A stretch of DNA of 64,000 nucleotides, from the IMG/VR virus record IMGVR_UViG_3300033073_001248, positions 1 to 64,000 of that record. The stretch is one strand, 5' to 3'. The notes beneath the pieces were generated by a model. That model did no database searches and had not been told where the DNA came from. It was given only the letters and a program-made list of their open reading frames with translations. Below, piece by piece: positions 5,954 through 19,398 of this stretch. The stretch comes from a virus (lineage: Duplodnaviria > Caudoviricetes). The stretch's first letter is position 1. Each line of letters starts with the position of its first letter. The translations under genes and the position numbers were made by a program.

Positions 5954-5963
5954 AGACACTGAT

Positions 5964-6166: not shown

Positions 6167-6179
6167 AGTAAAAGGAATT

Positions 6180-6341: not shown

Positions 6342-6344
6342 TTT

Positions 6345-6491
6345 CAGCGTGACAAGGCAACGCGAGCCGGCACACAACGCTATATAAACTGTGACAAATG
6401 GGCGGACAGTTGGATGAAATGCTGGCGGTAACAGCAGAGTACAAATAACTGGGTGGGGTATAACCCCATCATATCCTCTCGTTTGAGAGGG
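6345..6491 (+). ncRNA. candidate structured ncRNA of unknown family
   Basis: GC-rich relative to flanks; AGCGT/ACGCT, CAGTT/AACTG, TGCTG/CAGCA, TGGGG/CCCCA and TCCTCTC/GAGAGGG helices. Confidence 0.5.
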
Positions 6492-6592
6492 TATTCTAAA
6501 ACACAGGGGATGAATAAACCGGCCGGCAGATTGATGAACTGTTGTGGCGGCTCCATTGATCGGTGCGAACAATACCCTTGTGTTTTAGAATA
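6492..6592 (+). repeat. carrier-stem element 1 (18-bp inverted repeat enclosing a structured insert)
   Basis: TATTCTAAAACACAGGGG ... CCCTTGTGTTTTAGAATA. Confidence 0.8.
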
Positions 6593-6595
6593 TTG

Positions 6596-6624
6596 TTGAC
6601 AAAGCCTGTATAGGCATATATAAT
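6596..6624 (+). promoter_or_regulatory. sigma70-type promoter for tRNA-Asn
   Basis: TTGACA-N17-TATAAT; near-palindrome GCCTGTATAGGC in the spacer. Confidence 0.9.
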
Positions 6625-6633
6625 AGAAGTTAT

Positions 6634-6709
6634 TCCGGGTGAGCAATCTAGGTGAAGGCGGCGGACTGTTAATCCGTGAAGCCTGGTTCGAATCCAGGAC
6701 CCGGAGCCA
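6634..6709 (+). tRNA. tRNA-Asn (GTT)
   Basis: TCCGGGT/ACCCGGA stem, CT-GTT-AA loop, GCCA end. Confidence 0.93.
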
Positions 6710-6764
6710 TTTTTATACGGTAGACATAAATAAATATATAAAATATTTAAAGGCACTCTACCGT

Positions 6765-7208
6765 ATGAATTACAAAGGCACGAAAGACAAAATTTATACT
6801 TGTCATCATTGTATGACAAAGTTTAATTTTAAAGGGTATAGTTCAAATCACAAATATTGTGGTTTGGAGTGTTTTTACGCAGATCAATCTGCAAAAAAAT
6901 TAAAAATAGAAGAACAGCGATACCAAGATTGGTTAGCTGGAAAAGATTTAGGGATAAAAAATCCAAGAAAGTTAATAAGAGAATTTCTTATTAAACGAGA
7001 TGGATACAAATGTGTTTGTTGTGGTATAGATAGTTGGAATGGAAAAACTATTACATTGTGGACTGACCATATAGATGGTGATGCTACAAATAATAGTCCA
7101 TCTAACTTTAGATTAATCTGTCCTAATTGTGATAGCCAATCTGATACATTCGGAGGCAAAAATTACGGTAAAGGAAGAAAGTCTAGGGGATTACCACAGT
7201 ACGGTTAG
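6765..7208 (+). CDS. free-standing HNH endonuclease with Zn-finger-like N-terminus
   Basis: CxxC motifs; DHIDGDATNN...NFRLICPNCDS; ATG at 6765. Confidence 0.85.
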   Translation: MNYKGTKDKIYTCHHCMTKFNFKGYSSNHKYCGLECFYADQSAKKLKIEEQRYQDWLAGKDLGIKNPRKLIREFLIKRDGYKCVCCGIDSWNGKTITLWTDHIDGDATNNSPSNFRLICPNCDSQSDTFGGKNYGKGRKSRGLPQYG

Positions 7209-7219
7209 ATAAAGTTTTT

Positions 7220-7302
7220 GCCCTGGTGGTGGAATGGTAGACACGACGGTCTTAGAAGCCGTTGCCAAAAGCGTGAGAGTTCGAGTCTCTCCTAGGGCAC
7301 CA
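7220..7302 (+). tRNA. tRNA-Leu (TAG)
   Basis: Cloverleaf, CT-TAG-AA loop, variable arm, CCA. Confidence 0.95.
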
Positions 7303-7310
7303 AGTTATTT

Positions 7311-7384
7311 GCGGGGTTCGTATAGTGGTAATACCTTAGCCTTCCAAGCTAAAGCGGAGAGTTCGATTCTCTTACCCCGCTCCA
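7311..7384 (+). tRNA. tRNA-Gly (TCC)
   Basis: GCGGGGT/ACCCCGC stem, CT-TCC-AA loop, TCCA end. Confidence 0.95.
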
Positions 7385-7387
7385 CTA

Positions 7388-7416
7388 TTGACATAGTCTA
7401 TATTAGACTATATAAT
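7388..7416 (+). promoter_or_regulatory. sigma70-type promoter with palindromic spacer
   Basis: TTGACA-N17-TATAAT; ATAGTCTA-TAT-TAGACTAT inverted repeat. Confidence 0.85.
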
Positions 7417-7434
7417 GTGATAAATGGTAATTAT

Positions 7435-7587
7435 ATGCCAATGTATGAAACAACTGTAAGAACACCACAAGGTGAAGAAAAGAAGCGAGTCTATGCGGAC
7501 ACACCGCAGGAAGCAAAAAAGCTTTTTGAACAACTGTATGGTGGTCCCAGAAATGTTCCATATATTCCACATATAATTCCTAGTTGA
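7435..7587 (+). CDS. small hypothetical protein (50 aa)
   Basis: MPMYETTVRTPQGEEKKRVYADTPQEAKKLFEQLYGG...; follows a promoter. Confidence 0.6.
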   Translation: MPMYETTVRTPQGEEKKRVYADTPQEAKKLFEQLYGGPRNVPYIPHIIPS

Positions 7588-7591
7588 TTAT

Positions 7592-7666
7592 CGCGGGTTG
7601 GAGAAGAGGTATCTCGGGAGTCTCATAAGCTCCAGATCGGCGGTTCGATTCCGTCACCCGCAACCA
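7592..7666 (+). tRNA. tRNA-Met (CAT), initiator-like
   Basis: C1:A72 mismatch, CT-CAT-AA loop, ACCA end. Confidence 0.85.
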
Positions 7667-7680
7667 TAAAAAGATGCTAA

Positions 7681-8592
7681 ATGAAAATTAATATATTAGA
7701 CAACGGTTGGACAGTAGAATTAACTGATATCAATTTAGCCAAGGCAACAAATGAAGAGTTGTATGAAATTGCTAAGTTAGTAGCAACTAATACTCTTGTG
7801 TTTGCTCGTAATCAAAAGTTTACTCCAGACGATGAAGTAAGGATTACTAAAACAATTGGTTTAATTGAAGATTTTAACCCTCATGCAGGACTACCTCCAG
7901 AGGACGGTCCCGGTATAAGTCCGCATCGTCGAACAGTGCCTCCTGAATCTAGACTAGCAGATAGAATTTTACCTGACAGCAATAATAAAATATTGCGAGT
8001 GACTGGAGAGCTAAACGAAAATAATGTTCCGGGTTTGTTTGGTCATAAATCTACATTAGATTGGCATGCGAATAGACCTTGGGATCCAAATAGATTGCCG
8101 GTAGTGTGGTTGTATGCAGAAAGAGGCAGCGTTGGCAGTGTAACCAGCTTTGCCAACGGAGTCTTGGCTTATCAAGACATGGATCAAGAGTTTAAGAATT
8201 TCATTAAAGACAAAACTACTATAAACGGCCATATTTTTAACAGTTACACTGAAGAAAATTACGGTTGGGGCAGGACAACAATTAATTATAACTATAAGGC
8301 TCCTGTTGTTTACACAAATAAACTAGGCGTTACAGGATTAAACTTTAGTTACTACCATATTCATCATTTTACAGATATGGCAATTAAAGATAGCGAAGAT
8401 TTAAAAAATCGAATTCATGAATGGTACACGCAACCTAAATACATTTATGATCATCATTGGCAGGACGGTGATGTTTTGCTTGCAGATCAATATTTGGGTA
8501 TTCATAAAAGATGGGCATTTGAAAATATGGAACAAAGAGTACTTCATAGAATTACTACCAGTTACGATAATTGTCCATGGATGAAACAATAA
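7681..8592 (+). CDS. TauD/TfdA-family 2OG-Fe(II) dioxygenase
   Basis: GLFGH...LDWHAN; C-terminal HHWQDGDVLLADQ..GIHKR...RVLHR. Confidence 0.8.
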   Translation: MKINILDNGWTVELTDINLAKATNEELYEIAKLVATNTLVFARNQKFTPDDEVRITKTIGLIEDFNPHAGLPPEDGPGISPHRRTVPPESRLADRILPDSNNKILRVTGELNENNVPGLFGHKSTLDWHANRPWDPNRLPVVWLYAERGSVGSVTSFANGVLAYQDMDQEFKNFIKDKTTINGHIFNSYTEENYGWGRTTINYNYKAPVVYTNKLGVTGLNFSYYHIHHFTDMAIKDSEDLKNRIHEWYTQPKYIYDHHWQDGDVLLADQYLGIHKRWAFENMEQRVLHRITTSYDNCPWMKQ

Positions 8593-8605
8593 GTATATTA
8601 AATTA

Positions 8606-8681
8606 GGATCCTTAGCTCAGTTGGTAGAGCGGCACGTTTACACCGTGTAGGTCGGCAGTTCGAGACTGTCAGGATCCACCA
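8606..8681 (+). tRNA. tRNA-Val (TAC)
   Basis: GGATCCT/AGGATCC stem, TT-TAC-AC loop, CCA. Confidence 0.95.
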
Positions 8682-8686
8682 AAATT

Positions 8687-8764
8687 CGGAGTTTAGCGCA
8701 GTCTGGCTAGCGCATCTGCTTTGGGAGCAGAGGGTCGGGGGTTCGAATCCCTCAACTCCGACCA
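8687..8764 (+). tRNA. tRNA-Pro (TGG)
   Basis: CGGAGTT/AACTCCG stem, TT-TGG-GA loop, CCA. Confidence 0.95.
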
Positions 8765-8777
8765 ATTTTAAATTTAT

Positions 8778-9401
8778 ATGATATTACCTCGTTCATTCTA
8801 TTTTAGTAATTTTGTAAGACTTGGATTAGTTTGGTTCCCGCATTACAATATGATGAAACCACAGTTTACAAGCAACGGGAATCCAGTTTATGATGCACAT
8901 AATCAAACTGGATTTGTTGACCTAAATTTTGCATTAAAATTTATTGAACATCCCCGATTAGCAGATATAATTTTACAACAACGAAAAGAAGTTTTTGATT
9001 TAATGAAAAATATAGAGTGGTCTGGCTCTCCTAAAAGATATAAAACTTCTTTGATAATTCATGCACCCTCTGTGACAACCGAACCGCATTATCATTTCCC
9101 TACTACAAAAAATATATTAGTATATGGATATTCAGTCCCTAGTTGCGAAGAGGACCAACTATTAACAGACACAACAGGGTATGTCGAAGCCAATAATGGC
9201 ACAATATATGATTTTAAGGTAAACAAAAAGTTCATATTAAATATGGACAATGTAGGTAGTCCACACCGTGCCTATTCTAAAGATTGGAAATTTTACTGGG
9301 CTACTGATTATCATGACGAATATCTAACTTATGTTCCTAGAGAAGCAAGGGGAGATTTTGCAAAGCTCAGCGATGATGCTTTCCAATCAATAATTCAATG
9401 A
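8778..9401 (+). CDS. hypothetical protein, possible cupin/DSBH fold
   Basis: 207-aa AT-rich ORF; IHAP..TEPHYH ... PHRA histidine pattern. Confidence 0.5.
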   Translation: MILPRSFYFSNFVRLGLVWFPHYNMMKPQFTSNGNPVYDAHNQTGFVDLNFALKFIEHPRLADIILQQRKEVFDLMKNIEWSGSPKRYKTSLIIHAPSVTTEPHYHFPTTKNILVYGYSVPSCEEDQLLTDTTGYVEANNGTIYDFKVNKKFILNMDNVGSPHRAYSKDWKFYWATDYHDEYLTYVPREARGDFAKLSDDAFQSIIQ

Positions 9402-9423
9402 ATAAACTAATTAAGGAAAAAAC

Positions 9424-9591
9424 ATGACTTGTCGCGGATATGATTCAAAAGCAGTATTAATTAAAAAACCCATTAAAACATTGGCAGCTACTATTAAAGA
9501 TCCGCACAAGCGTGGTGCATTTATTCGCGACTATGTTCGTGCTGCTCAAGCAAACTTGATTAACAGCAAGCGACGCCGAGAGCAAGATTAA
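9424..9591 (+). CDS. small basic hypothetical protein (55 aa)
   Basis: AAGGA SD; MTCRGYDSKAVLIKKPIKTLAATIKDPHKRGAFIRDYVRA... Confidence 0.65.
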   Translation: MTCRGYDSKAVLIKKPIKTLAATIKDPHKRGAFIRDYVRAAQANLINSKRRREQD

Positions 9592-9597
9592 TCAATC

Positions 9598-9672
9598 GGG
9601 GGATTGGTGCTAACGGGAACACGGTGGCTTTGCAAGCCTCAGTTAAGGGTTCGATTCCCTTATCCTCCACCA
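9598..9672 (+). tRNA. tRNA-Ala (TGC)
   Basis: GGGGGAT/ATCCTCC stem with G3:U70, TT-TGC-AA loop, CCA. Confidence 0.9.
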
Positions 9673-9676
9673 ATAA

Positions 9677-10336
9677 TTATAAGTCTATAATAGGCTTGAA
9701 TATTTCTACAGCCTGTTCCCATGATGAGATTTGAGATGTGTCAAATCTCACACTGATACCAATTCTATTAGACTTTTGTGATTCAAATTCAATGCTATGA
9801 GGTACTTCGGTTCTCACAAGATAACATTGTGTGGGATTAACTGTTAATGTTTCCAATACATCGTAGGTATCAAAGTAAGGGTCAGGATAAAGATCGCGAC
9901 TATAACTTTTATATCTTTGATTATAATGAATACTGCCATTTAACCCTCTTGGATATTCATAGTATCCGCTGTCCTGTTCAGGATAAAATTCTTCACTGTT
10001 TTTAACGTCTAACCAACGCCAAGAAGCCTTGCTGTCGGTTATCTCCCAATTTATTCCACATGGAATTTTTACCCACTTGTTGTCTACTAGAGTTATATCA
10101 GTATGCACAAGAGTCTTACCTGATGAAACTGTGGGTAGTCCAATAATTAAAGCCTGCGTAGGTTTTACTCCCAAATGAGAAAATTTTTCCATTAATTCTG
10201 GAGATAAAATTTCTTCTAAGTTAGTGTGAGTAAGACCGTACCATTTTACTGTTTCATTTAGTACATCTAAAGTTGTATTTTTTGTAAGAGGAAAAGGCAA
10301 ATTTAATGGATAGTAATATTTCATAAAATTTTTCAA
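9677..10336 (-). CDS. putative 2OG-Fe(II)/cupin-fold protein, antisense to the tRNA array
   Basis: LVHTD...GINW...LVRTEVPHSIE..R..ISVRF; same motif spacing as 5270-5890. Confidence 0.6.
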   Translation of the reverse strand: MKNFMKYYYPLNLPFPLTKNTTLDVLNETVKWYGLTHTNLEEILSPELMEKFSHLGVKPTQALIIGLPTVSSGKTLVHTDITLVDNKWVKIPCGINWEITDSKASWRWLDVKNSEEFYPEQDSGYYEYPRGLNGSIHYNQRYKSYSRDLYPDPYFDTYDVLETLTVNPTQCYLVRTEVPHSIEFESQKSNRIGISVRFDTSQISSWEQAVEIFKPIIDL

Positions 10337-10344
10337 AATTATTT

Positions 10345-10419
10345 AGCCGCGTAGCTCAGAGGAAGAGCAACGTCTTGATAAGGCGTAGGCCGACATTTCG
10401 AAACTGTCCGCGGCTACCA
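10345..10419 (+). tRNA. tRNA-Ile (GAT)
   Basis: AGCCGCG/CGCGGCT stem, TT-GAT-AA loop, CCA. Confidence 0.9.
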
Positions 10420-10431
10420 AACAAAATCAAT

Positions 10432-10506
10432 GGTGTCCATAGTTTAGTGGCAAAACCGCGGGTTGTGATTCCGCTATCATGAGTTCGATTCTCATTGGAT
10501 ACCCCA
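10432..10506 (+). tRNA. tRNA-His (GTG)
   Basis: G-1 and C73, TT-GTG-AT loop, CCA. Confidence 0.93.
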
Positions 10507-10510
10507 ATAT

Positions 10511-10586
10511 GCTGCTTTAGCTGATGTGGTCATAGCACCGGTCTGAAGAACCGAGGAACCTGGTTCGATCCCAGGAGGCAGCACCA
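10511..10586 (+). tRNA. tRNA-Phe (GAA)
   Basis: GCTGCTT/AGGCAGC stem, CT-GAA-GA loop, CCA. Confidence 0.93.
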
Positions 10587-10592
10587 TACATG

Positions 10593-10667
10593 ACCGCCAT
10601 CGTATAATGGATAATACACGAGGCTACGAACTTCGGAATTGTGGTTCGATTCCATATGGCGGTACCA
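10593..10667 (+). tRNA. tRNA-Arg (ACG)
   Basis: ACCGCCA/TGGCGGT stem, CT-ACG-AA loop, CCA. Confidence 0.92.
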
Positions 10668-10672
10668 AACAA

Positions 10673-10765
10673 GGAAGCGTTAGCCGAATCGGCATAGCGG
10701 CAACTGTCTTGAAAACAGAGGGCCCAGAAATGGGTGTGTGAGTTCGAGTCTCACCGCTTCCGCCA
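10673..10765 (+). tRNA. tRNA-Ser (TGA)
   Basis: GGAAGCG/CGCTTCC stem, CT-TGA-AA loop, long variable arm, GCCA end. Confidence 0.93.
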
Positions 10766-10794
10766 TTGACATTAAATATTTTTACTGTTATAAT
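10766..10794 (+). promoter_or_regulatory. sigma70-type internal promoter
   Basis: TTGACA-N17-TATAAT. Confidence 0.85.
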
Positions 10795-10802
10795 AGATTC
10801 AT

Positions 10803-10891
10803 GGAGAGTGGGCAGGATGGTAATGCAGCAGATTGCTAATCTGTCATCGGATTAAACCGATGAGTGGGTTCGATTCCCACACTCTCCGCCA
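10803..10891 (+). tRNA. tRNA-Ser (GCT)
   Basis: GGAGAGT/ACTCTCC stem, TT-GCT-AA loop, long variable arm, GCCA end. Confidence 0.95.
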
Positions 10892-10897
10892 AATAAA

Positions 10898-10971
10898 GTC
10901 TCGCAAGTGTTACGGCAGCACATCAGTCTCCAAAACTGAGGGCCGGGGTTCGACTCCCTGGCGGGACGCCA
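10898..10971 (+). tRNA. tRNA-Trp (CCA)
   Basis: CT-CCA-AA loop, cloverleaf, GCCA end. Confidence 0.92.
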
Positions 10972-10977
10972 ACTAAT

Positions 10978-11055
10978 GCACCGATGGCAGAGCGGCCCAA
11001 TGCAAGGGATTGCAAATCCCTAAAACCGTAGGTTCAAATCCTACTCGGTGCTCCA
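10978..11055 (+). tRNA. tRNA-Cys (GCA)
   Basis: GCACCGA/TCGGTGC stem, U73, TT-GCA-AA loop. Confidence 0.93.
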
Positions 11056-11065
11056 TATAATTTTT

Positions 11066-11141
11066 AGAAGTGTAGCATAGCGGCTAATGCGCCACCTTCA
11101 TACGGTGTTTATCGTGAGTTCGAGCCTCACCACTTCTACCA
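11066..11141 (+). tRNA. tRNA-Met (CAT), elongator-like
   Basis: Fully paired AGAAGTG/CACTTCT stem, TT-CAT-AC loop, CCA. Confidence 0.85.
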
Positions 11142-11143
11142 AA

Positions 11144-11303
11144 TTTCGGGATAGACGGTAGTTTTGAGTCCTGGTCAATCTAGCCACAGTGGAATCAACT
11201 GCGGCGACACTATAGTATGATTGATTGGTAGCAAGAGCTTGACTATTCGAGACAAGCATAGTTCGGAGTATGCGGTGTAAAAGCCGGAACTATGTTCCCG
11301 AAA
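11144..11303 (+). ncRNA. candidate structured ncRNA between tRNA-Met and tRNA-Gln
   Basis: Closed by TTTCGGGA/TCCCGAAA; internal CATAGTTC/GAACTATG, GCTTG/CAAGC and CAGT/ACTG helices. Confidence 0.6.
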
Positions 11304-11313
11304 ATCTATCTGT

Positions 11314-11387
11314 TGGGGGATAGTTAAATGGTATAACCACGGATTTTGATTCCGTTATTCTTGGTTCGATTCCAAGTCCCTCTGCCA
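11314..11387 (+). tRNA. tRNA-Gln (TTG)
   Basis: TT-TTG-AT loop, weak 1:72 pair, GCCA end. Confidence 0.9.
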
Positions 11388-11425
11388 ATAACTTTTGTTG
11401 TTAACAGGGTTTTGTAAATATTATC

Positions 11426-12949
11426 ATGCAATACGAATTGAAAAAACTTTTTATAGGCAACAACACAACTGATACTGATTTAAAGGTGTCAATACAATCA
11501 GACTTGTTACAAACTAAAAATCATGGATTAATTTCAGATTCAAACTTTATACCTGATAAGAATGGATTTTATCACACATCAGTTACTGATTTGTCAATTG
11601 GCGAAATAATTAAAATTTCTAAATATTTTGATGAAATTGAAATGTTAGATCAACCACGGGATGAATGGACTCACCAAAAATCTTTGTTGTCAACATTTAA
11701 GCTAATGTGTGAACTTGAAAAAATAGGCCGCAATACAAAATTTAGAACTAATAAAAATATTATTGGGTTTGGTGAATTTGAAGATTTTTTAAATCAAAAT
11801 AAAAGTTTTTGCATTTATCCTTGGATTAATTTTGTAATGGAAAATAGTAAAAATTTACAACTGTGTGCAAGATCTGGACTTGTAGTAACACAAGTAGATA
11901 AACTCCAAGATTGGGTTAATGACAAACATTTTAACACAATAAGAAATAAAATGTTAGCGGGCCAGTCAATGGGACATGCTTGCCAAGTTTGCTATAACTA
12001 TGAAGCAATTGGTGCAGAAAGTTATAGACAGTATGATACGCGAGAGTGGTTAAATCAATTAGAAATTAAAAATTTAAGTGATTTAAAAAAAATTGAAAAT
12101 CCATATTATTACGAAATAAGGTTATCTAATAAATGTAATGCTATGTGTAGAGGTTGTCGCCCGTCCTACAGTCATCTAATAGAAAAAGAAGCTAGAAAAT
12201 TTAATATTGTACATGACAAAGGAAATTTTAAACCTGCTTATCCTAGTATTAACAATATAAATGTATCTACATTAACAAACAAACACCGAGTTTATTTGAC
12301 TGGTGGCGAACCAACTATAATGTCAGAAGTATTAAAATTTATGGAAAATTGTATTGATCAAAATAAAACTGATTTTGAGCTTACAATGAGTACTAACGGT
12401 GAAAAGTTTAGTGCTAAATTCCTAAAATTGTCTGAATCCTTTTCTAATATGAATTTTAGCTTTAGTTTAGATGGCTACGGCAAAATTAATGATTATTGGC
12501 GTTGGGGAACAAATTGGGATAACATAGTAAAAAACATGAAGTTATGCCAACGAATGGGGCATTCTGTCCAAATTAACACTGTTCCGGGAATTTATAATGT
12601 TACAAATTTACATTTGTTATATGAATTTTTAGATAAAGAATTCCCACTTACTACAGTGTATCTGCAATTAAATTATTTAGAAAAATTTAATACATTTAAT
12701 CATCCAAATAGAAAATTAGTTGTAGAAAGTATGGAAAAATGTAAACAAACAAAAGTATATCATTCGGACGGAAAAAGTAATAAAACTGTAATTGATTCAA
12801 TATACGATTATTATATAAAGAATCCAACCCCTGATATTTCACTACTTAAACAATTTTTTGATTTTAACGATCAACTTGATCGTGCAAGAAATTCTAAGTT
12901 GGGTGATTATATACCAGAATTAGAAGCTTGCAGACAATATATTTTGTAG
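11426..12949 (+). CDS. radical SAM protein with twitch/SPASM-like Cys-rich segment
   Basis: CNAMCRGC (CxxxCxxC), LTGGEP, STNG, FSLDG; upstream CIYPW...C...CxxC. Confidence 0.88.
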   Translation: MQYELKKLFIGNNTTDTDLKVSIQSDLLQTKNHGLISDSNFIPDKNGFYHTSVTDLSIGEIIKISKYFDEIEMLDQPRDEWTHQKSLLSTFKLMCELEKIGRNTKFRTNKNIIGFGEFEDFLNQNKSFCIYPWINFVMENSKNLQLCARSGLVVTQVDKLQDWVNDKHFNTIRNKMLAGQSMGHACQVCYNYEAIGAESYRQYDTREWLNQLEIKNLSDLKKIENPYYYEIRLSNKCNAMCRGCRPSYSHLIEKEARKFNIVHDKGNFKPAYPSINNINVSTLTNKHRVYLTGGEPTIMSEVLKFMENCIDQNKTDFELTMSTNGEKFSAKFLKLSESFSNMNFSFSLDGYGKINDYWRWGTNWDNIVKNMKLCQRMGHSVQINTVPGIYNVTNLHLLYEFLDKEFPLTTVYLQLNYLEKFNTFNHPNRKLVVESMEKCKQTKVYHSDGKSNKTVIDSIYDYYIKNPTPDISLLKQFFDFNDQLDRARNSKLGDYIPELEACRQYIL

Positions 12950-13014
12950 TACATTAGTTATACTAGACTAATATTACAAATCCTGTTATAATACTATTTT
13001 AAGGAGTTTGCACT

Positions 13015-13155
13015 ATGCAACGAAAACTGATCGTCAAGCAGCGTAACCGCTTCGTTGTCTTGGCTTTGATGAGAAAAGCGGGCGTACATCGCAAGACCAA
13101 TAAAGCCTTGCGTAGAAAAGACAATGCGTCCTTAGCTCAGTTGGTAGAGCAGTAG
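13015..13155 (+). CDS. small basic protein (46 aa) whose last 10 codons overlap tRNA-Lys
   Basis: AAGGAG SD; MQRKLIVKQRNRFVVLALMRKAGVHRKTNKALRRKDNASLAQLVEQ; promoter TAGACT-N17-TATAAT at 12964-12992. Confidence 0.6.
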   Translation: MQRKLIVKQRNRFVVLALMRKAGVHRKTNKALRRKDNASLAQLVEQ

Positions 13156-13201
13156 ACTTTTAATCTATTGGTCGGGAGTTCAAATCTCCCAGGGCGTACC
13201 A
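13126..13201 (+). tRNA. tRNA-Lys (TTT)
   Basis: CT-TTT-AA loop, cloverleaf, CCA. Confidence 0.95.
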
Positions 13202-13278
13202 TATAAAAACACACTTTGCACGGTAGGAGCCCGTCCCAAGGTACATCGGGTAGAGAGGATAGTGTGTTTTTATATGGT
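13198..13278 (+). repeat. carrier-stem element 2 (perfect 18-bp inverted repeat starting at the tRNA-Lys ACCA)
   Basis: ACCATATAAAAACACACT ... AGTGTGTTTTTATATGGT, 45-nt insert. Confidence 0.9.
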
Positions 13279-13347
13279 AGCAATACCAGAGGCTGCGATT
13301 CCGACAGATCGTGATCGGATAGGAACTCCACCGCCTCAAAGGGTGGA

Positions 13348-13468
13348 ACCATATAAAAACACATTGGAGAAGAGACTCCATAACACCCGGGAAGGTTATG
13401 GTTTGACGGCACAGACTAGGAGGTACAGTAATGTATCGGCGATGCTTGCCAGTGTGTTTCTATATGGT
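13348..13468 (+). repeat. carrier-stem element 3
   Basis: ACCATATAAAAACACATTGG ... CCAGTGTGTTTCTATATGGT, about 81-nt insert. Confidence 0.88.
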
Positions 13469-13628
13469 ACAAGACTGTTCTATGGGCACTGCAATGAACA
13501 TAGACAGGTTGCGTGGTGTTGCCGGAAGCACGGTGAAGCGAGTACGCAGAGTTGAAGTCCTTGCAGGGATGGATGAGTTGCTGAAAACGGATCAGGTACA
13601 GGTTCGAATCCTGTAGCATTTATTTGTT

Positions 13629-13757
13629 GCCATATTGAAACATATTCATCATTGGTCGTTGGCCTCGAGAGGTTGGTAGCCTGGACCACACGACGAAGCA
13701 GCCTAACCAGCGCGATGAAAAGTCCTATAGTAGGACGAGAATGTGTTTCAATATGGT
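13629..13757 (+). repeat. carrier-stem element 4
   Basis: GCCATATTGAAACATATTC ... GAATGTGTTTCAATATGGT, about 91-nt insert. Confidence 0.88.
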
Positions 13758-13785
13758 AGACAAATATTCCTATATTTGTTATAAT
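13757..13785 (+). promoter_or_regulatory. sigma70-type promoter for tRNA-Glu
   Basis: TAGACA-N17-TATAAT; ACAAATA/TATTTGT inverted repeat across the spacer. Confidence 0.7.
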
Positions 13786-13837
13786 ATACACATGTTAAGA
13801 AATTAACATTGTTCTTTAAAAATTAAATGGCAATTAT

Positions 13838-13912
13838 GCTCGGTTCGTCTATCGGTTAGGACGCTGGCCTTTCACGCCGGAAAGAGGGGTTCGACTCCCC
13901 TACCGAGTACCA
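13838..13912 (+). tRNA. tRNA-Glu (TTC)
   Basis: CT-TTC-AC loop, cloverleaf, CCA. Confidence 0.93.
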
Positions 13913-14024
13913 TATAGAAACGCATTCAACGGCTTCGTGGATACCTAGCAACTGGACGCAGGGGCTATCCCAAAGAGTAGGCATACCGCCGTAAAGCTAG
14001 GGCAAGAGTGTGTTTCTATATGGT
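13909..14024 (+). repeat. carrier-stem element 5 (starts at the tRNA-Glu ACCA)
   Basis: ACCATATAGAAACGCATTC ... GAGTGTGTTTCTATATGGT, about 78-nt insert. Confidence 0.88.
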
Positions 14025-14030
14025 AATTAT

Positions 14031-14115
14031 GGATGAGTAGGAAAATTGGTAACCCCAGGAGACTGTAAATCTTCCGCCTCTGGCATTGTTGGTTCAAGTC
14101 CAACCTCATCCACCA
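14031..14115 (+). tRNA. tRNA-Tyr (GTA)
   Basis: GGATGAG/CTCATCC stem, CT-GTA-AA loop, variable arm, CCA. Confidence 0.95.
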
Positions 14116-14332
14116 AGAATGCACACCGTCGCTTTACGGTGTGGCGGGACGGCTTCCCCGATTGCAATCGGATCCACGAAGTGGGCTTACGAGCGCCTCT
14201 CAAACCGCAACTAGAGTTCTCCGCAAGAGAACATAGCACAAATTCTTATAAGAAGAAAGCGCTCGCCTTGCGCCAGTGCGGGGAATAATGAGAAAGAACG
14301 GGGTACAAGTCCCAAGCGTTGGTACAAATTTT

Positions 14333-14409
14333 GGTTCCATAGTATAGCCTGGTAATTACAGCGGCTTGTCACGCCGTCAACAGGGGTTCGAATCCCCTTG
14401 GGACCGCCA
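14333..14409 (+). tRNA. tRNA-Asp (GTC)
   Basis: TT-GTC-AC loop, GCCA end. Confidence 0.95.
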
Positions 14410-14543
14410 AGTTTTGTCATGGTGTAATGAGAATGCATGGGATCGCCACATAAGTCTATGCCGAAGGGCAACACTAATATTTTGGTGCAATAGCGGTGGA
14501 TGTGAGGTTCAGGTGTGGTAAAAACCCACAACGACATACAAGT

Positions 14544-14754
14544 TTCGTAAGTGTCAGCAAGAGAAAGTCACGCTATAAAGGTTTCTTCGAAGGACTGATA
14601 TAGTAAAAGGTGACGGGTTCGACTCCCGGCCGCTCGCATGAGCGGTGCAGATGGTTGCTAACTGGACCGGTATCCCAAGTGGCGTACCGAGTCCCGCTAG
14701 CTAAACCGGAGAAGGGTGAATGGTGTCTATAATGATGGTGACACTACTTACGAA
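14544..14754 (+). ncRNA. candidate ~210-nt structured ncRNA with a T-arm-like hairpin
   Basis: Closed by TTCGTAAGT/ACTTACGAA; GTCAC/GTGAC, CGGG-TTCGACT-CCCG, CCGCTC/GAGCGG and GGTA/TACC helices. Confidence 0.6.
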
Positions 14755-14764
14755 TTTATTTTAT

Positions 14765-14860
14765 GCCCCTGTAGTTTAATGGTAGAACTCTGAGCTTATA
14801 CCTCAGCTTATGCCGCCAGATTAGCGGATGGTGCAGGTTCGAATCCTGCCGGGGGTACCA
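14765..14860 (+). tRNA. atypical tRNA with TAT anticodon (nominal Ile) and a long variable arm
   Basis: CTGAG-CTTATAC-CTCAG anticodon arm, about 25-nt variable region with CCGC/GCGG stem, canonical T arm, ACCA end. Confidence 0.75.
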
Positions 14861-14883
14861 AATATTTTGGACAACAAAGTCCG

Positions 14884-14912
14884 TTGACAATTAATGTAAA
14901 AGATAATACAAT
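14884..14912 (+). promoter_or_regulatory. sigma70-type promoter for the large ncRNA
   Basis: TTGACA-N17-TACAAT. Confidence 0.85.
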
Positions 14913-14918
14913 AGATAC

Positions 14919-15809
14919 TTAGGGCAGTTTATTGTCCTGTTAGGCGGCTTGCCGTTTAACGAAGAATAAGTGCAGTGATGCACCCAAAGGAGGTAAGCCT
15001 ACGCAACTCCGCTGGCAACAGTTCGTGTAAACAAGCCTGCTCACTACCGCGAGGTAGCGTTCACTGAAAAAACCGGTGGATGTAACAGCAAAGCTGATGT
15101 AGTGGAAAGAACGGTGATCGACTAGCCCGCAAGGGAACTAGGGTCAGCGGAAAGTAACAGGTGGTGCTGACTTCACTACAAAACCAATCAGTTAGTTGGT
15201 ATGAGAAAGGGTAGTGTTAGGATCCGAGGTGTCGCAACCAAGGGTTCTAGCGCAATGTTAATGGTCAGTGGCACCGTCGTGAGACAGTGACACAGGTCGT
15301 GAAACATTACTGAGTAGACCGCGAGTCAAAAGGTATTTGGTGAGTTGTATACTGTATGCCAAAAGCATATGGAGCAACTGAGGCAGCTCATCAAGGTAGG
15401 TTGCAACGTAGATCAATTGGTAGATCGTCTGTCTTCTAAACAGGATGTTGCGGGTTCAAATCCCGCCGTAATAAAAATGCAAAGACTGCCTCGGTTATCG
15501 GTGAAAAGCATCTAATGCTTGACACGCAAGTGAATCAAGTCCGCGGAGGCTCGCAAGGCTGAAGTGGTTTGTACTGGAAGTTTCGTAAGGTGTTAGCGCA
15601 CTTGAATGGCTCGCAAGGTCAACGGAGAATAAGGTACAGAGTAGCTGATAACGACTGGCCTACTGCCTGGCCATAAAAACGGCGATGCTGGTAACAGACT
15701 AGGTTACATAGTGATATGGACTTAGTGGATGTCGAGAGAAGCTGTGCTCGCAAGGTGCAGTATAATGCTCGAGGTGTTACTGGCTAAAGTGTAATCTCAG
15801 CTTTAGCAC
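14919..15809 (+). ncRNA. GOLLD-like large ornate RNA
   Basis: About 890 nt with no ORF in the track; own promoter; dense hairpins with many CGCAAG loops; GGTGGTGCTG, TGAGTAG, AAAGACTGCCTC and 3' TAATCTCAGC recalled from GOLLD; next to tRNAs. Confidence 0.75.
15402..15474 (+). tRNA. tRNA-Arg(TCT)-like domain embedded in the GOLLD-like RNA
   Basis: Intact D (GATC/GATC), anticodon (CT-TCT-AA) and T (GCGGG-TTCAAAT-CCCGC) arms; acceptor stem has 2 mismatches and no CCA. Confidence 0.75.
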
Positions 15810-15871
15810 TATTCTAAAACACATTACTAAGAGTCCAGGTTAAGAGCGTGGCATAGTGTGTTTCAGAATAG
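15809..15871 (+). repeat. carrier-stem element 6
   Basis: CTATTCTAAAACACATTA ... TAGTGTGTTTCAGAATAG, 27-nt insert. Confidence 0.8.
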
Positions 15872-15889
15872 TCTTCGATAGGAGTCTCT

Positions 15890-16264
15890 ATGAAAATCAC
15901 AGAAGATCAATTTAGGTTTGAGTGGTTTTCCGGTACAGGTAAAGGTGGGCAACATCGCAACAAACACCAAAACTGTTGCCGTTGCATACATGAACCAACT
16001 GGAATTACTGCTAACGGCACTGCCAGTCGTAGTCGCGAAGATAATAAACTAGCGGCATACAATACTTGCAGAGCTAGAGTGGCTGCACACTTTCACAAAG
16101 ACAAAGAGCGTGGCCTTGCAGGTACAGAACGAATTCGTACATATCATGAACCCGACAACAGAGTTGTTGATCACGCCAGTGGCTTGACTGACACTTACAC
16201 TAATGTCGTAGTAAAAGGTGATATAGAGGATATGATCACTGCTCGCGCACGAGCAGTTAGATAA
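15890..16264 (+). CDS. minimal class-I release-factor-like peptidyl-tRNA hydrolase (GGQ domain; ArfB/PrfH-like)
   Basis: SGTGKGGQHRNK..C.RCIHEPTGI; C-terminal ERIRTYHEPDNRVVDH resembles the RF1/RF2 C-terminus; AGGAG SD. Confidence 0.85.
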   Translation: MKITEDQFRFEWFSGTGKGGQHRNKHQNCCRCIHEPTGITANGTASRSREDNKLAAYNTCRARVAAHFHKDKERGLAGTERIRTYHEPDNRVVDHASGLTDTYTNVVVKGDIEDMITARARAVR

Positions 16265-16268
16265 GAAC

Positions 16269-16465
16269 GTGCCGCTTAATCAACGGCTAGTCCGACCCGG
16301 ACGATAGGAAGTGGCTTGATCACCACGGGTGGTAGTCTTTAAACCAAAAGGCCGCTGGCAATGCGATAACGGTCCCGGTCGGGAAGCGGGTGGAGGCTGT
16401 GCGTGATGGGGTTGGGGTTTCCTGGCTCTTGATGCAGTATAATTACCGCCGCGGGGCGCAGAGCA
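16269..16465 (+). ncRNA. candidate GC-rich structured ncRNA
   Basis: High GC relative to flanks, no ORF in the track; TCCGACCCGG/CCGGTCGGGA, GTGG/CCAC and GCGGGTGG/TTACCGC pairings. Confidence 0.5.
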
Positions 16466-16669
16466 TTATTTTTGCTGTTCTTTTAATAGTTCTATGCGAT
16501 TTAAAATCACTTCTCTAGCATAGAAATCGTCGTGAAGTAAATACATTAGTAGAGCAGTCAAGATGCCCCTTTGGTAAGCTAAAAGCTCGCCCGAAGATGA
16601 AAACAATTTTTTATTAGTATATAAATCTAAGTATTCATTTATAGTATCAAATGCTTCTTGATTGGTCAT
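16466..16669 (-). CDS. hypothetical protein (67 aa)
   Basis: AT-rich ORF inserted antisense within the array. Confidence 0.5.
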   Translation of the reverse strand: MTNQEAFDTINEYLDLYTNKKLFSSSGELLAYQRGILTALLMYLLHDDFYAREVILNRIELLKEQQK

Positions 16670-16686
16670 ACTTTATTTAATTAATT

Positions 16687-16761
16687 GCCCTGTTAGTTCT
16701 AGTGGTAAAACATCGGTTTTGTAATCCGAGGTCGGGTGTTCGATTCACCCCCAGGGCACCA
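16687..16761 (+). tRNA. tRNA-Thr (TGT)
   Basis: TT-TGT-AA loop, cloverleaf, CCA. Confidence 0.9.
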
Positions 16762-16843
16762 TAAACAGTGTACAGGCACTTTTCAAATCCTGTCTTTGTG
16801 TGTTACCGAGCATTGCTCCTACTCGGAAGAGTATCGGTATAAT

Positions 16844-16917
16844 GCGGGATTAGTTTATTGGTAAAACAGAACCTTGCCAAGGTCCAGTGACCAGTTCGAT
16901 TCTGGTATCCCGCTCCA
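16844..16917 (+). tRNA. tRNA-Gly (GCC)
   Basis: GCGGGAT/ATCCCGC stem, TT-GCC-AA loop, TCCA end. Confidence 0.93.
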
Positions 16918-16923
16918 TTTAAT

Positions 16924-16998
16924 CCGTCCTTAGTTCAATGGATAGAATACCGTGCTTCGAACTCGGGGGTGGAGGTTCGATTCCTTCAGGACGGGCCA
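16924..16998 (+). tRNA. tRNA-Arg (TCG)
   Basis: CCGTCCT/AGGACGG stem, CT-TCG-AA loop, GCCA end. Confidence 0.9.
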
Positions 16999-16999
16999 G

Positions 17000-17194
17000 T
17001 CAATAACTGTCTGTGCCTCTTACACTACCCCAATAGTTTTTCATATCAACTGTAAGTTTAGGCCAGTCTTCAACTGTTTCAGCCTTAAACTCAGCGACCT
17101 TAGGTTTTGCATCAGCCACAAATTCATAGTCTTGACTTTGCCGGCCTGTATATTGAGCTGTAAACTCTTTTGTTATTGTCCATGGTGTAAACAT
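17000..17194 (-). CDS. hypothetical protein (64 aa)
   Basis: ORF exactly fills the gap between two tRNAs. Confidence 0.5.
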   Translation of the reverse strand: MFTPWTITKEFTAQYTGRQSQDYEFVADAKPKVAEFKAETVEDWPKLTVDMKNYWGSVRGTDSY

Positions 17195-17204
17195 ACAGTA
17201 TTTA

Positions 17205-17279
17205 CTCGCCGTAGTTCAGTGGATAGAACAAGACACTCCTAAGGTCAAAACGGCTGTTCGATTCAGCCCGGCGAGACCA
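17205..17279 (+). tRNA. tRNA-Arg (CCT)
   Basis: CTCGCCG/CGGCGAG stem, CT-CCT-AA loop; weak anticodon stem; CCA. Confidence 0.82.
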
Positions 17280-17280
17280 T

Positions 17281-17357
17281 GCCCAGATGGCGGAATTGGT
17301 ATACGCACCTCTCTCAAAAGGAGACTGTTGAGGGTTCGAATCCCTCTCTGGGTACCA
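17281..17357 (+). tRNA. tRNA-Leu (CAA) with short variable loop
   Basis: Leu-type D arm (GGCGGAATTGGTATACGC), CT-CAA-AA loop, variable region only about 5 nt, ACCA end. Confidence 0.85.
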
Positions 17358-17358
17358 T

Positions 17359-17432
17359 GCTCTTGTAGTTAAATGGCATAACACATTCTTGGTAAGAATG
17401 AATAGATGGTTCGATTCCATCCTAGAGCACCA
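17359..17432 (+). tRNA. tRNA-Thr (GGT)
   Basis: TT-GGT-AA loop, cloverleaf, CCA. Confidence 0.92.
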
Positions 17433-17688: not shown

Positions 17689-18180
17689 ATGCCTTGGATT
17701 GAAAATGTCAGTATGAAAGATATTGCGGCTGGCCGTCATAATAATGCTGGCACTAACAGTATGTTGATTCAAATTGTAGATCCTGCGGTAGAATTTCCTG
17801 CTCCAAAACATTCTTTTAAAGAAGTCCATCAATTTGAATTTCTTGACGCTGAAGTAAACGATCGTTACCCCGACGAAGCCAAATGTACAGACGAACAAGC
17901 TGCGACTCTGACTCGCTTATTACAACACGCATTGGATAATGATATGAATGTGGTTGTACACTGTCATGCTGGTGTTTGTCGGTCGGGTGCTGTATGTGAA
18001 GTTGGTGTTATCATGGGATTTACAGACACTGAAAGTTTTCGTAGTCCTAACTTGTTGGTCAAGCATAAGATGATGAAAGCCTTAGGATTGTCATATGACG
18101 AAAATGAACTGCATACAATCAACGGTGTTACTACAGATTGGGGTTTTGTTATTCCTAAGTCTCACAAAGGTAATAAATGA
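17689..18180 (+). CDS. Cys-based (PTP/dual-specificity) phosphatase
   Basis: VVVHCHAGVCRSGA matches HCxxGxxRS. Confidence 0.85.
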   Translation: MPWIENVSMKDIAAGRHNNAGTNSMLIQIVDPAVEFPAPKHSFKEVHQFEFLDAEVNDRYPDEAKCTDEQAATLTRLLQHALDNDMNVVVHCHAGVCRSGAVCEVGVIMGFTDTESFRSPNLLVKHKMMKALGLSYDENELHTINGVTTDWGFVIPKSHKGNK

Positions 18181-18810: not shown

Positions 18811-19398
18811 ATGCCCACAACTTTTGTAATTTCAGACACGCATTTCGGGCATGAAAAAACCTGTACAGTGTTTAAGCGTGAAGATGGTTCACCACTGCGT
18901 CCTTTTGCGTCAGCTGAGGAAATGGATGAAGCCATGGTAGAGCGTTGGAACGCTAGGGTTCGACCCAACGACAAAGTCTACCATCTAGGCGATGTTGTGA
19001 TTAACCGTAAATCTTTACACATTCTGCATCGCTTAAACGGTGACAAAGTCTTAATCAAAGGCAACCACGATATCTTTAAACTCACTGACTATACAGAACA
19101 CTTTAGGGATATTCGTGCTTACCATGTGCTGAACGGCATGATCTTTAGCCATGTGCCTGTGCATGAAGAAAGCCTTGCTCGTTTTGGCTGCAACATTCAT
19201 GGACATTTACATGCTAACCGTGTTATGATGGTAAAGCACAATGGAGCTACCCCAGAAATAGATCCCAGATACTTTTGTGCCTGTGTTGAACACACAGACT
19301 TTGCTCCTATCAGTCTTGAAGAAATCGGGGACCGAATTAGAGCACAAGGCGGTCATGTGGGGTTTAAAAACGGTAACGGTCCTATCGCAGTTATGTAA
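18811..19398 (+). CDS. calcineurin-like metallophosphoesterase
   Basis: SDTHFGH, HLGD, KGNHD, SHVP, HGHLH. Confidence 0.9.
   Translation: MPTTFVISDTHFGHEKTCTVFKREDGSPLRPFASAEEMDEAMVERWNARVRPNDKVYHLGDVVINRKSLHILHRLNGDKVLIKGNHDIFKLTDYTEHFRDIRAYHVLNGMIFSHVPVHEESLARFGCNIHGHLHANRVMMVKHNGATPEIDPRYFCACVEHTDFAPISLEEIGDRIRAQGGHVGFKNGNGPIAVM

What the first reader, a model, noticed from the sequence alone, without database searches (positions are those of the whole stretch)
14884..15809. GOLLD-like giant RNA carries the island's only AGA-reading tRNA as an internal domain
Seen: an about 890-nt ORF-free, hairpin-dense RNA with its own promoter. A tRNA-Arg(TCT) fold at 15402-15474 sits inside the GAGGCAG(15380-86)/CTGCCTC(15486-92) helix; its D, anticodon and T arms are intact, but the acceptor stem is mismatched and lacks CCA. 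The array has free Arg tRNAs for ACG, TCG and CCT but none for TCT, although AGA appears to be the commonest Arg codon in the AT-rich genes here. Established: GOLLD RNAs lie near phage tRNA genes, some carry internal tRNAs, and they form large homo-oligomeric cages; their function is unknown. Inference: the domain is either displayed on the cage as an anticodon-loop decoy or is excised and repaired.
Basis: partly seen in the sequence, partly recalled or inferred. Interest (0 to 1): 0.7.

Follow-up and report, generated by a model that had tools for sequence, protein, structure and literature searches.

The report
GOLLD phage RNA with pseudo-tRNA module
This is a genuine member of the known GOLLD family of giant cage-forming phage RNAs, and the "arginine tRNA" in its middle is a non-chargeable tRNA look-alike typical of its branch, not the phage's missing AGA-reading tRNA.

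Summary
There is a GOLLD RNA (Rfam 215.6 bits) of about 885 nt with its own promoter. A tRNA-shaped domain with anticodon UCU sits inside a closing helix. Its acceptor stem is mismatched and it has no CCA. The 85.7-kb record has no free tRNA-Arg(UCU). AGA is the commonest Arg codon.

The inference that this domain supplies AGA decoding is not supported. I surveyed 79 viral homologs.
- The linker domain is a GOLLD-specific lineage of tRNA look-alikes. Bodies are 82% identical to modules with other anticodons and 61% identical to free tRNAs with the same anticodon.
- Encoded CCA occurs in 1 of 55 modules and in 92% of free tRNAs. Acceptor pairs 1-3 pair at chance level, while the D, anticodon and T stems are about 100% paired with many compensatory changes.
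- The "anticodon" shifts often but stays within one step of UUU with U36 kept (drift simulation P <= 0.001).
- Modules are usually redundant with a free tRNA (11 of 13 large arrays).
- UCU-type modules also occur in two cultured phages that hardly use AGA.
- The window's module lacks A20, which 60 of 61 free Arg tRNAs have.

The most likely role is a tethered tRNA mimic inside the cage, possibly a decoy for proteins that bind anticodon arms. That role is inferred, not shown. This scan has already noted such modules in many other genomes.

The parts
14884..14912 (+). Sigma-70-like promoter (TTGACA, 17-nt spacer, TACAAT)
   Evidence: It matches 11 of 12 consensus positions. Conservation among homologs starts about 7 nt downstream. 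Function is not shown.
14920..15803 (+). Full-length GOLLD RNA, about 885 nt
   Evidence: The 3' half matches Rfam RF02032. The 5' half is 60-86% identical to 45 homologs.
14920..15336 (+). GOLLD 5' domain, which the Rfam model does not cover
   Evidence: It aligns with 45 homologs at 53-86% identity per 30-nt window.
15337..15395 (+). Hairpin at the start of the Rfam model (model positions 1-62)
   Evidence: Shown in the cmscan alignment.
15380..15386 (+). 5' arm of the long-range helix that closes the linker
   Evidence: It pairs with 15486-15492 in 46 of 46 homologs, with AT/TA/GC and TA/GC exchanges.
15402..15474 (+). tRNA-shaped module (nominally Arg-UCU) in linker J13/15
   Evidence: Rfam tRNA scores 60.7 bits and ARAGORN calls it. 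It has a 4-bp acceptor stub, no CCA and U20. Family covariation supports the fold.
15433..15439 (+). Anticodon loop CUUCUAA (anticodon at 15435-15437)
   Evidence: U33, U36, A37 and A38 are nearly fixed in the family, while positions 34 and 35 vary.
15475..15485 (+). A-rich 3' linker that stands where CCA would be
   Evidence: In homologs AAA follows the discriminator.
15486..15492 (+). 3' arm of the closing helix
15479..15803 (+). Conserved GOLLD 3' domain
   Evidence: nhmmer scores 275 bits. It corresponds to Rfam model positions of about 130-416.

Best explanation
The locus encodes a full-length GOLLD RNA of a Rak2/Atu_ph07-type jumbo phage, transcribed from its own promoter inside the phage tRNA island. 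Its central linker, closed by a covarying 7-bp helix, holds a tRNA-shaped module. This module is not a tRNA gene captured for decoding. It belongs to a lineage of pseudo-tRNAs inherited within this GOLLD clade. The lineage keeps the D/T elbow and, above all, the anticodon arm under strong selection. It has lost the aminoacyl end: no CCA, acceptor pairs 1-3 unselected, and no ArgRS element A20. The loop is a Lys-UUU-like CU-NNU-AA whose two variable bases switch often but stay within one step of UUU. The window's UCU is one of several independent occurrences. Shown here: the module's descent, its selective constraints, its redundancy with free tRNAs, and the lack of any link between its anticodon and codon demand. 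Inferred: the module stays covalently attached and, as published GOLLD structures place the linker, hangs inside the 12-14-mer cage. There it acts as a tRNA mimic that binds some factor recognising the anticodon arm and elbow of Lys/Asn/Thr/Arg(UCU)-class tRNAs. My leading candidate, at about 0.3, is a multivalent, poorly cleavable decoy for host anticodon nucleases. The confidence given is for the core claim: a non-chargeable, selected tRNA mimic that is not the AGA decoder.
For: GOLLD membership is shown. Among 55 ARAGORN-called modules from 79 homologous loci, 1 has encoded CCA, against 903 of 984 free tRNAs in the same loci. Acceptors without any mismatch are 5 of 55 against 812 of 984. 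On alignment A1 (37 distinct modules), acceptor pairs 1-3 are 46% paired, equal to the slid controls at 34-49%. The inner acceptor is 96.6% paired, D 98.6%, anticodon 100% and T 100%, with 203 double-sided changes where shuffles give 71. Each module's best match to a module with a different anticodon has median 82% identity, against 61% for free tRNAs with the same anticodon, and this holds for 39 of 41. Anticodons are interleaved on the GOLLD tree. Fitch steps are 13 at position 34, 12 at position 35 and 4 at position 36, with U33, A37 and A38 at 2-3. The anticodon lies within one step of UUU in 52 of 55 modules, against 23% of free tRNAs. Drift simulated on the tree gives P <= 0.001 for that pattern and about 0.004 for keeping U36. 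Redundancy: when the module carries anticodon X, a free X is present in 11 large arrays and absent in 2; when it does not, a free X is present in 47 and absent in 15. A20 is A in 60 of 61 free Arg tRNAs and T in 49 of 54 modules, and the window has U20. UCU-type modules occur in MD18 and Phosso, where AGA is 3% and 5% of Arg codons. Relatives that lost the elbow still keep a perfect anticodon arm. The literature places the linker inside the cage and notes that tRNAs are sometimes present there (PMC12286853). The PARIS nuclease AriB targets Lys-UUU, Thr-UGU and Asn-GUU, and that paper proposes that viral tRNAs may form non-productive complexes with effectors (PMC12409363).
Against: No expression, processing or binding data exist for this clade. 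The three genomes with large tRNA sets and a UCU-type module (the window, MD18 and Phosso) all lack a free tRNA-Arg(UCU). Taken alone, that would fit substitution (Fisher P of about 0.02-0.05). It is weakened by low AGA use in two of them and by L176, which has both the module and a free copy. CCA-adding enzymes and repair could in principle rescue a released module. For the decoy step, the linker points into the cage, where a nuclease may not reach it. Modules have G or A at position 39, not the U39 of the published AriB motif. The host and its defences are unknown. The GOLLD tree may not be the module's tree if modules recombine, which would inflate the change counts.
Confidence: 0.8

Rival explanations
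1. The module is the phage's working tRNA-Arg(UCU). RNase P and a 3' nuclease excise it from GOLLD, possibly after storage in the cage, then it is CCA-tailed and charged, supplying AGA decoding for an AGA-rich genome.
For: AGA is the commonest Arg codon. There is no free TCT in the 85.7-kb record, nor in the complete genomes of MD18 and Phosso, which carry UCU-type modules. The D, anticodon and T arms are intact. A published review proposes 'inhibited storage' of embedded tRNAs (PMC12990946).
Against: The module has two adjacent acceptor mismatches and no CCA, while all 30 neighbouring tRNAs encode CCA. Family-wide, acceptor pairs 1-3 are unselected. It has U20 where 60 of 61 free Arg tRNAs have A20. 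Its body is related to Lys-type and Asn-type modules, not to Arg tRNAs. Modules are usually redundant with free tRNAs. MD18 and Phosso hardly use AGA. The record covers only about 16% of the genome, so a free TCT may lie elsewhere.
Confidence: 0.06
2. The module is purely architectural. The tRNA elbow and arms would serve as a strut, a docking piece or a folding nucleus of the cage. Alternatively it would be an RNase P/Z cleavage site that nicks GOLLD into two paired halves. In either case the loop would not be read by any factor.
For: Helices and elbow nucleotides are strongly conserved. tRNA-like punctuation is a known processing signal (established knowledge). Earlier notes of this scan report permuted modules with cutting signals in other branches.
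Against: The acceptor end, which RNase P and RNase Z need, is the least conserved part. Some relatives lost the elbow but keep the anticodon arm and the CUGUUAA loop. The loop is constrained (U33, U36, A37, A38, and within one step of UUU), yet no GOLLD column covaries with position 34. The linker was disordered in the solved env-38 structure, which has no tRNA in it.
Confidence: 0.2
3. The module is a decaying relic of a once-functional embedded tRNA, drifting neutrally and without present function.
For: It has lost CCA and has a frayed acceptor. The anticodon changes between close relatives. The elbow has decayed in a few relatives.
Against: Pairing in the anticodon and T stems is 100%, with dozens of compensatory changes. 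The module is kept in about 66 of 71 loci with a readable linker. Unconstrained drift of the anticodon is rejected.
Confidence: 0.03

Closest known systems
GOLLD RNA (Rfam RF02032) with a tRNA in its J13/15 linker. Sources: Kretsch et al. 2025, PMC12286853; review PMC12990946, citing Morgado 2020 for Mycolicibacterium tRNA-Phe.
   Same: It matches the Rfam model above the gathering score, has the two-domain layout, lies in a phage tRNA island, and has a tRNA-shaped insert in the linker that faces the cage interior.
   Different: The literature treats the inserts as phage tRNAs that are stored or exposed. In this clade the insert is a lineage of its own that lacks CCA, acceptor pairs 1-3 and identity elements, so it is a mimic and not a stored tRNA. 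Outgroup loci L122 and L179 do carry ordinary-looking tRNAs.
GOLLD of Phaeobacter phage MD18 (MT270409) and of Sinorhizobium phage Phosso (PV764938)
   Same: Both are cultured phages whose GOLLD linker holds a UCU-type module at the same position. In both, the module lacks CCA and has a frayed acceptor.
   Different: MD18's module has G33 and A20 and sits on an outgroup branch. In GenBank it is annotated simply as tRNA-Arg. Both genomes use AGA rarely.
Phage T5 tRNA variants that neutralise the PARIS anticodon-arm nuclease AriB (PMC11464382, PMC12409363)
   Same: They involve the same tRNA classes (Lys-UUU, Thr-UGU, Asn-GUU). They are phage-encoded, and they differ from the host tRNAs at and after position 39.
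   Different: The T5 molecules are free, chargeable tRNAs that replace the cleaved ones. The GOLLD module is tethered and non-chargeable, and could act only as a competitor. No nuclease is known for these hosts.
Viral and cellular tRNA-like structures that are not decoders, such as plant-virus 3' TLSs and mascRNA-type elements (from general knowledge)
   Same: They also have a tRNA fold embedded in a larger RNA and used for recognition, not for decoding.
   Different: Those elements keep or exploit the acceptor end (aminoacylation, or cleavage by RNase P/Z). Here the acceptor end is the part that has been lost.

Membership tests
GOLLD RNA (RF02032) | The covariance-model score reaches the Rfam gathering threshold (150 bits) over the full model. 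| tested here: met
   The score is 215.6 bits, model positions 1-416, not truncated. The own-genome search gives the same result.
GOLLD RNA (RF02032) | A variable 5' domain and a conserved 3' domain are joined by a linker, for a total of about 800-900 nt. | tested here: met
   About 885 nt are conserved from 14919 to 15803 across 46 homologs.
GOLLD RNA (RF02032) | It lies in a phage or prophage, typically within or beside tRNA arrays. | tested here: met
   It lies inside a 31-tRNA island of a jumbo-phage contig.
GOLLD RNA (RF02032) | It assembles into a homo-oligomeric (10-14-mer) cage. | not testable with these tools
   This is known only from cryo-EM of env-38 and the S. agalactiae RNA.
Functional bacterial-type tRNA-Arg | A cloverleaf with D, anticodon and T arms and the elbow nucleotides. 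| tested here: met
   Rfam tRNA scores 60.7 bits. G18, G19, T54, T55, C56 and A58 are present.
Functional bacterial-type tRNA-Arg | A seven-pair acceptor stem. | tested here: not met
   There are CxA and AxA mismatches at pairs 3-70 and 4-69. Family-wide, pairs 1-3 pair at chance level.
Functional bacterial-type tRNA-Arg | A 3' CCA, which every other tRNA of this phage encodes. | tested here: not met
   AAA follows A73. All 30 free tRNAs encode CCA. Across the family, 1 of 55 modules has CCA against 903 of 984 free tRNAs.
Functional bacterial-type tRNA-Arg | A20 in the D-loop, the major ArgRS identity element (from established E. coli work, cited from memory), together with C35. | tested here: not met
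   The module has U20. Of 61 free Arg tRNAs in these phages, 60 have A20. C35 is present.
Functional bacterial-type tRNA-Arg | Release from the precursor and aminoacylation. | not testable with these tools
   This needs tRNA-seq or a Northern blot.
Anti-defence tRNA decoy or replacement (T5 versus PARIS type) | Its anticodon arm resembles that of the tRNAs targeted by a host nuclease. | tested here: inconclusive
   The loop class matches Lys-UUU, Asn-GUU, Thr-UGU and Arg-UCU. However, position 39 is G or A, not U, and the host is unknown.
Anti-defence tRNA decoy or replacement (T5 versus PARIS type) | It relieves a tRNA-targeting defence during infection. | not testable with these tools
   This needs plating assays.

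The most novel reading that the evidence does not exclude
In this jumbo-phage clade the GOLLD cage may be an RNA-only anti-defence device. It would display 12-14 tethered, non-chargeable, Lys-UUU-like anticodon arms as a multivalent decoy or sponge for host anticodon-arm nucleases (PrrC, RloC or PARIS type) or for another factor that binds anticodon arms. The rapid switching of bases 34 and 35 would be the trace of an arms race.
Probability: 0.2. Interest if true: 0.85.

Novelty: new member of a known kind. Interest (0 to 1): 0.4.

Why it matters
The function of GOLLD has been open since 2009. Recent cage structures led to the idea that the cages store or expose phage tRNAs. For this large viral clade the survey argues against stored tRNAs. 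What is selected is an anticodon arm and elbow with a Lys-UUU-like loop, not an aminoacylatable tRNA. That narrows the hypotheses to recognition or mimicry. The survey also identifies two cultured phage-host pairs in which this can be tested: Phosso on Sinorhizobium meliloti and MD18 on Phaeobacter inhibens. For annotation, these modules should not be counted as tRNA genes when judging a phage's decoding capacity. GenBank annotates the MD18 module as tRNA-Arg.

Tried and rejected
(1) Complementarity between the module and the free tRNA set. I tested it on arrays with at least 20 free tRNAs and found no depletion. A possible exception for UCU is explained at least partly by low AGA use in MD18 and Phosso.

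(2) Repeated capture of free tRNAs into the linker. Body identities reject this.

(3) An internal pairing partner (specifier or kissing loop) for the anticodon. No GOLLD column is complementary to position 34 in 46 full-length homologs. Power is limited.

(4) Search motifs. The 3'-terminal motif and GAGGCTCGCAAGGCTGA mostly returned loci that my nhmmer profile did not recognise as this clade (3 of 57 and 4 of 62 recognised). I did not check whether the rest are divergent GOLLDs.

(5) nhmmer iteration added no further loci.

(6) The plasmid collection gave no match, so I could not examine the Mycobacterium-type GOLLD with tRNA-Phe. The Morgado 2020 paper is not held in the library.

(7) Thermodynamic folding of the window's module recovers the closing helix and the D and T hairpins, but not the AU-rich anticodon stem. 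The evidence for the cloverleaf is comparative.

(8) Four cultured jumbo-phage relatives (Atu_ph07, GAP32, CBB, Vibrio phage 2.275.O) have no GOLLD hit.

(9) A conserved rescue-factor neighbourhood. The RF-1-domain ORF recurs in only 3 other loci.

Full report
**Observation**

The Rfam GOLLD model (RF02032) matches window 15337-15803 on the + strand at 215.6 bits (gathering score 150). The own-genome search repeats this. It also shows that the window is the first 64 kb of an 85.7-kb IMG/VR virus record that CheckV rates 16% complete.

The Rfam model covers only the hairpin before the linker and the 3' domain. I aligned 620 nt upstream of the 3' domain from 46 homologs. Conservation begins at about 14919. 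That is directly downstream of an 11/12 sigma-70-like promoter at 14884-14912. No sense ORF above 56 aa lies inside it.

The embedded tRNA is called by the Rfam tRNA model (15402-15474, 60.7 bits) and by ARAGORN (Arg, TCT). Its acceptor has two adjacent internal mismatches (CxA, AxA), and A73 is followed by AAA. All 30 other tRNAs of the record encode CCA and have sound acceptor stems. All 31 tRNAs lie at 5037-17432, and none of the free ones has TCT. AGA is 36% of Arg codons in 75 long ORFs, the most frequent Arg codon.

**What is already known**

Kretsch et al. (Nature 2025, PMC12286853) show that the GOLLD linker lies inside a 14-mer cage. [quoted passage not shown] A 2026 review (PMC12990946) cites a Mycolicibacterium GOLLD with tRNA-Phe in J13/15 and proposes 'inhibited storage'. 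A tRNA in the GOLLD linker is therefore a published feature. This scan has also noted CCA-less modules in GOLLD linkers in many other genomes.

**Survey**

Three motif scans of IMG/VR, followed by an nhmmer profile of the 3' domain, gave 79 loci of this GOLLD clade, mostly from the motif ATGGCTCGCAAGGTCAA.
- ARAGORN finds a tRNA ending 4-10 nt before the 3' domain in 52 of 67 evaluable loci. With structure parsing the count is 55 modules, 41 of them distinct.
- Eleven further loci carry a module that ARAGORN misses, including L173, the window's closest relative, which has loop CTGTTAA.
- Five loci, all outgroup branches including Xanthomonas phage BUDD, have other linkers.

**The module has no aminoacyl end**

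Encoded CCA occurs in 1 of 55 modules and in 903 of 984 free tRNAs of the same loci. Acceptors free of mismatches number 5 of 55 against 812 of 984. On a MAFFT alignment of 37 distinct modules (A1), a pair count gives the following percentages of paired cells:
- Acceptor pairs 1-3: 46%. The slid controls give 34-49%.
- Inner acceptor pairs 4-7: 96.6%.
- D stem: 98.6%.
- Anticodon stem: 100%.
- T stem: 100%.

There are 203 cells with changes on both sides, where shuffles give 71. U8, A14, G18, G19, T54, T55, C56 and A58 are fixed or nearly so. Several relatives have lost the G18G19 and T-loop elbow but keep a perfect anticodon arm. Selection therefore acts on the arm and elbow, not on the end that is charged or that RNase P and RNase Z recognise.

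**The module is its own lineage**

With the anticodon masked, each module's best match among modules with a different anticodon has median 82% identity. Its best match among about 700 free tRNAs is 69%, and among free tRNAs with the same anticodon 61%. The first value exceeds the last in 39 of 41 cases. The window's nearest body is a Lys-TTT module (79%). The same acceptor stub carries GTT, TAT, TCT, TTC and TTT. On the GOLLD 3'-domain tree the anticodons are interleaved, and the UCU cases fall in separate places.

**The anticodon shifts, but not freely**

The loop consensus is C32 U33 N34 N35 U36 A37 A38. On the tree the Fitch steps are 13 at position 34, 12 at position 35 and 4 at position 36, with 2-3 for U33, A37 and A38. 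The anticodons seen are GTT 20, TTT 11, CTT 10, TCT 5, TGT 3, and single cases of TAT, ATT, TTC, TCC, TGG and TGA. Thus 52 of 55 lie within one step of TTT, against 23% of free tRNAs. I simulated unconstrained drift on the tree, calibrated to the observed 29 steps. Only about 9-11 of 44 tips then lie within one step, against 41 observed (P <= 0.001). Keeping T36 in 40 of 44 has P of about 0.004. One caveat applies: if modules recombine between GOLLDs, the step count is inflated. No GOLLD column is complementary to position 34, so I see no internal pairing partner.

**Decoding need does not explain the module**

In arrays with at least 20 free tRNAs, a free tRNA with the module's anticodon is present in 11 and absent in 2. 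For other anticodons of the set the figures are 47 and 15. Free TCT is absent from 6 of 18 large arrays whatever the module is.

One result pointed the other way, so I followed it up. The complete genomes of MD18 (34 tRNAs) and Phosso (62 tRNAs), both with UCU-type modules, have no free tRNA-Arg(UCU). But AGA is only 3% and 5% of their Arg codons, so they have little need for such a tRNA. The same module type thus occurs with high AGA use (the window) and with low AGA use. Locus L176 has both a UCU module and a free TCT.

The base after G18G19 (A20) is the main ArgRS identity element in E. coli work (my knowledge, not checked here). It is A in 60 of 61 free Arg tRNAs of these phages and T in 49 of 54 modules. 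The window has U20.

**Mechanism**

What is shown is a selected, non-chargeable tRNA mimic fixed in the linker. What follows is inference. From the published structures, the module hangs inside the cage in 12-14 copies. The conserved Lys-UUU-like arm suggests recognition by a factor that reads anticodon arms.

The tRNA classes represented (Lys-UUU and CUU, Asn-GUU, Thr-UGU, Arg-UCU) overlap strikingly with the published targets of the PARIS nuclease AriB, which are Lys-UUU, Thr-UGU and Asn-GUU (PMC12409363). PrrC, which targets Lys-UUU, is another case (my knowledge; that paper mentions PrrC only as a system cleaving anticodon loops). The AriB paper itself raises the idea of non-productive complexes between viral tRNAs and effectors. 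Modules have G or A at position 39, like the cleavage-resistant T5 variant (U39A), and not the U39 of the AriB motif. That fits an uncleavable competitor, but it equally fits no relation at all. I put the decoy reading at about 0.3, a purely architectural role at about 0.2, and release as a working tRNA at about 0.06.

**Context**

A UvsX-like protein places the phage with the Rak2/GAP32/Atu_ph07/Phosso jumbo phages of Proteobacteria (62-70% identity). Of five cultured relatives searched, only Phosso has a GOLLD (186.6 bits), and its module has loop CTTCTAA. An RF-1 (GGQ) domain ORF follows the window's GOLLD, and a tmRNA follows MD18's. The RF-1 ORF recurs in only 3 other loci.

**Verdict**

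The family assignment is correct. The 'only AGA reader' inference is not supported. This is a new member of a known kind, with a comparative result that sharpens what the linker 'tRNAs' of this clade are.

Noticed in passing
window 14765-14860: This is a tRNA with anticodon TAT, 96 nt long with a long class-II-like variable arm, encoded CCA and an intact acceptor, directly upstream of the GOLLD promoter. Phosso has a 93-nt tRNA-Ile(TAT) as well (PV764938, 383344-383436), and 15 free TAT tRNAs occur in the surveyed loci.
   Followed up: no
window 15890-16264: A 124-aa ORF with an RF-1 domain (PF00472, GGQ motif, E 2e-14) lies 90 nt after GOLLD. It is a candidate ArfB-like peptidyl-tRNA hydrolase. 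Homologs occur in only 3 other surveyed loci. In phage MD18 a two-piece tmRNA follows GOLLD instead (L002 3700-4115).
   Followed up: partly
window 17689-18180 and 18811-19398: A DSP/PTP-type phosphatase ORF recurs near GOLLD in 20 surveyed loci, and a 195-aa ORF with metallophosphoesterase-like motifs but no Pfam hit recurs in 18. These could be RNA end-healing enzymes, but nothing was tested.
   Followed up: partly
window 15809-15871: A long inverted repeat forms a hairpin immediately after the GOLLD 3' end. It could be a terminator or a processing stem.
   Followed up: no
loci L124, L134, L165, L170, L184 (linker just upstream of the 3' domain): These are GOLLD relatives whose module has lost G18G19 and the canonical T-loop but keeps a perfect anticodon stem with loop CTGTTAA or CTTTTAA. 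This natural 'elbow-less' series shows that the arm is the core of the module.
   Followed up: partly
loci L122 and L179 (outgroup GOLLD branch): Here the linker holds ordinary-looking tRNAs with nearly intact acceptors: Lys-TTT with CCA, and Ser-TGA. Real tRNAs and pseudo-tRNA modules therefore both occur in GOLLD linkers.
   Followed up: no
Phosso PV764938, 171983-172058 and 446731-446806: ARAGORN calls two tRNAs with anticodon CTA (amber-reading, labelled 'Pyl') in this 469-kb phage.
   Followed up: no
window 5037-17432: All 30 free tRNAs of the island encode their 3' CCA and together cover all 20 amino acids. In the surveyed relatives, 92% of free tRNAs encode CCA.
   Followed up: yes
L002 3085-3158 (phage MD18): The GOLLD module is annotated in GenBank as tRNA-Arg, but it has G33 in place of the universal U33, no CCA and a frayed acceptor. 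It is probably mis-annotated as a tRNA gene.
   Followed up: partly
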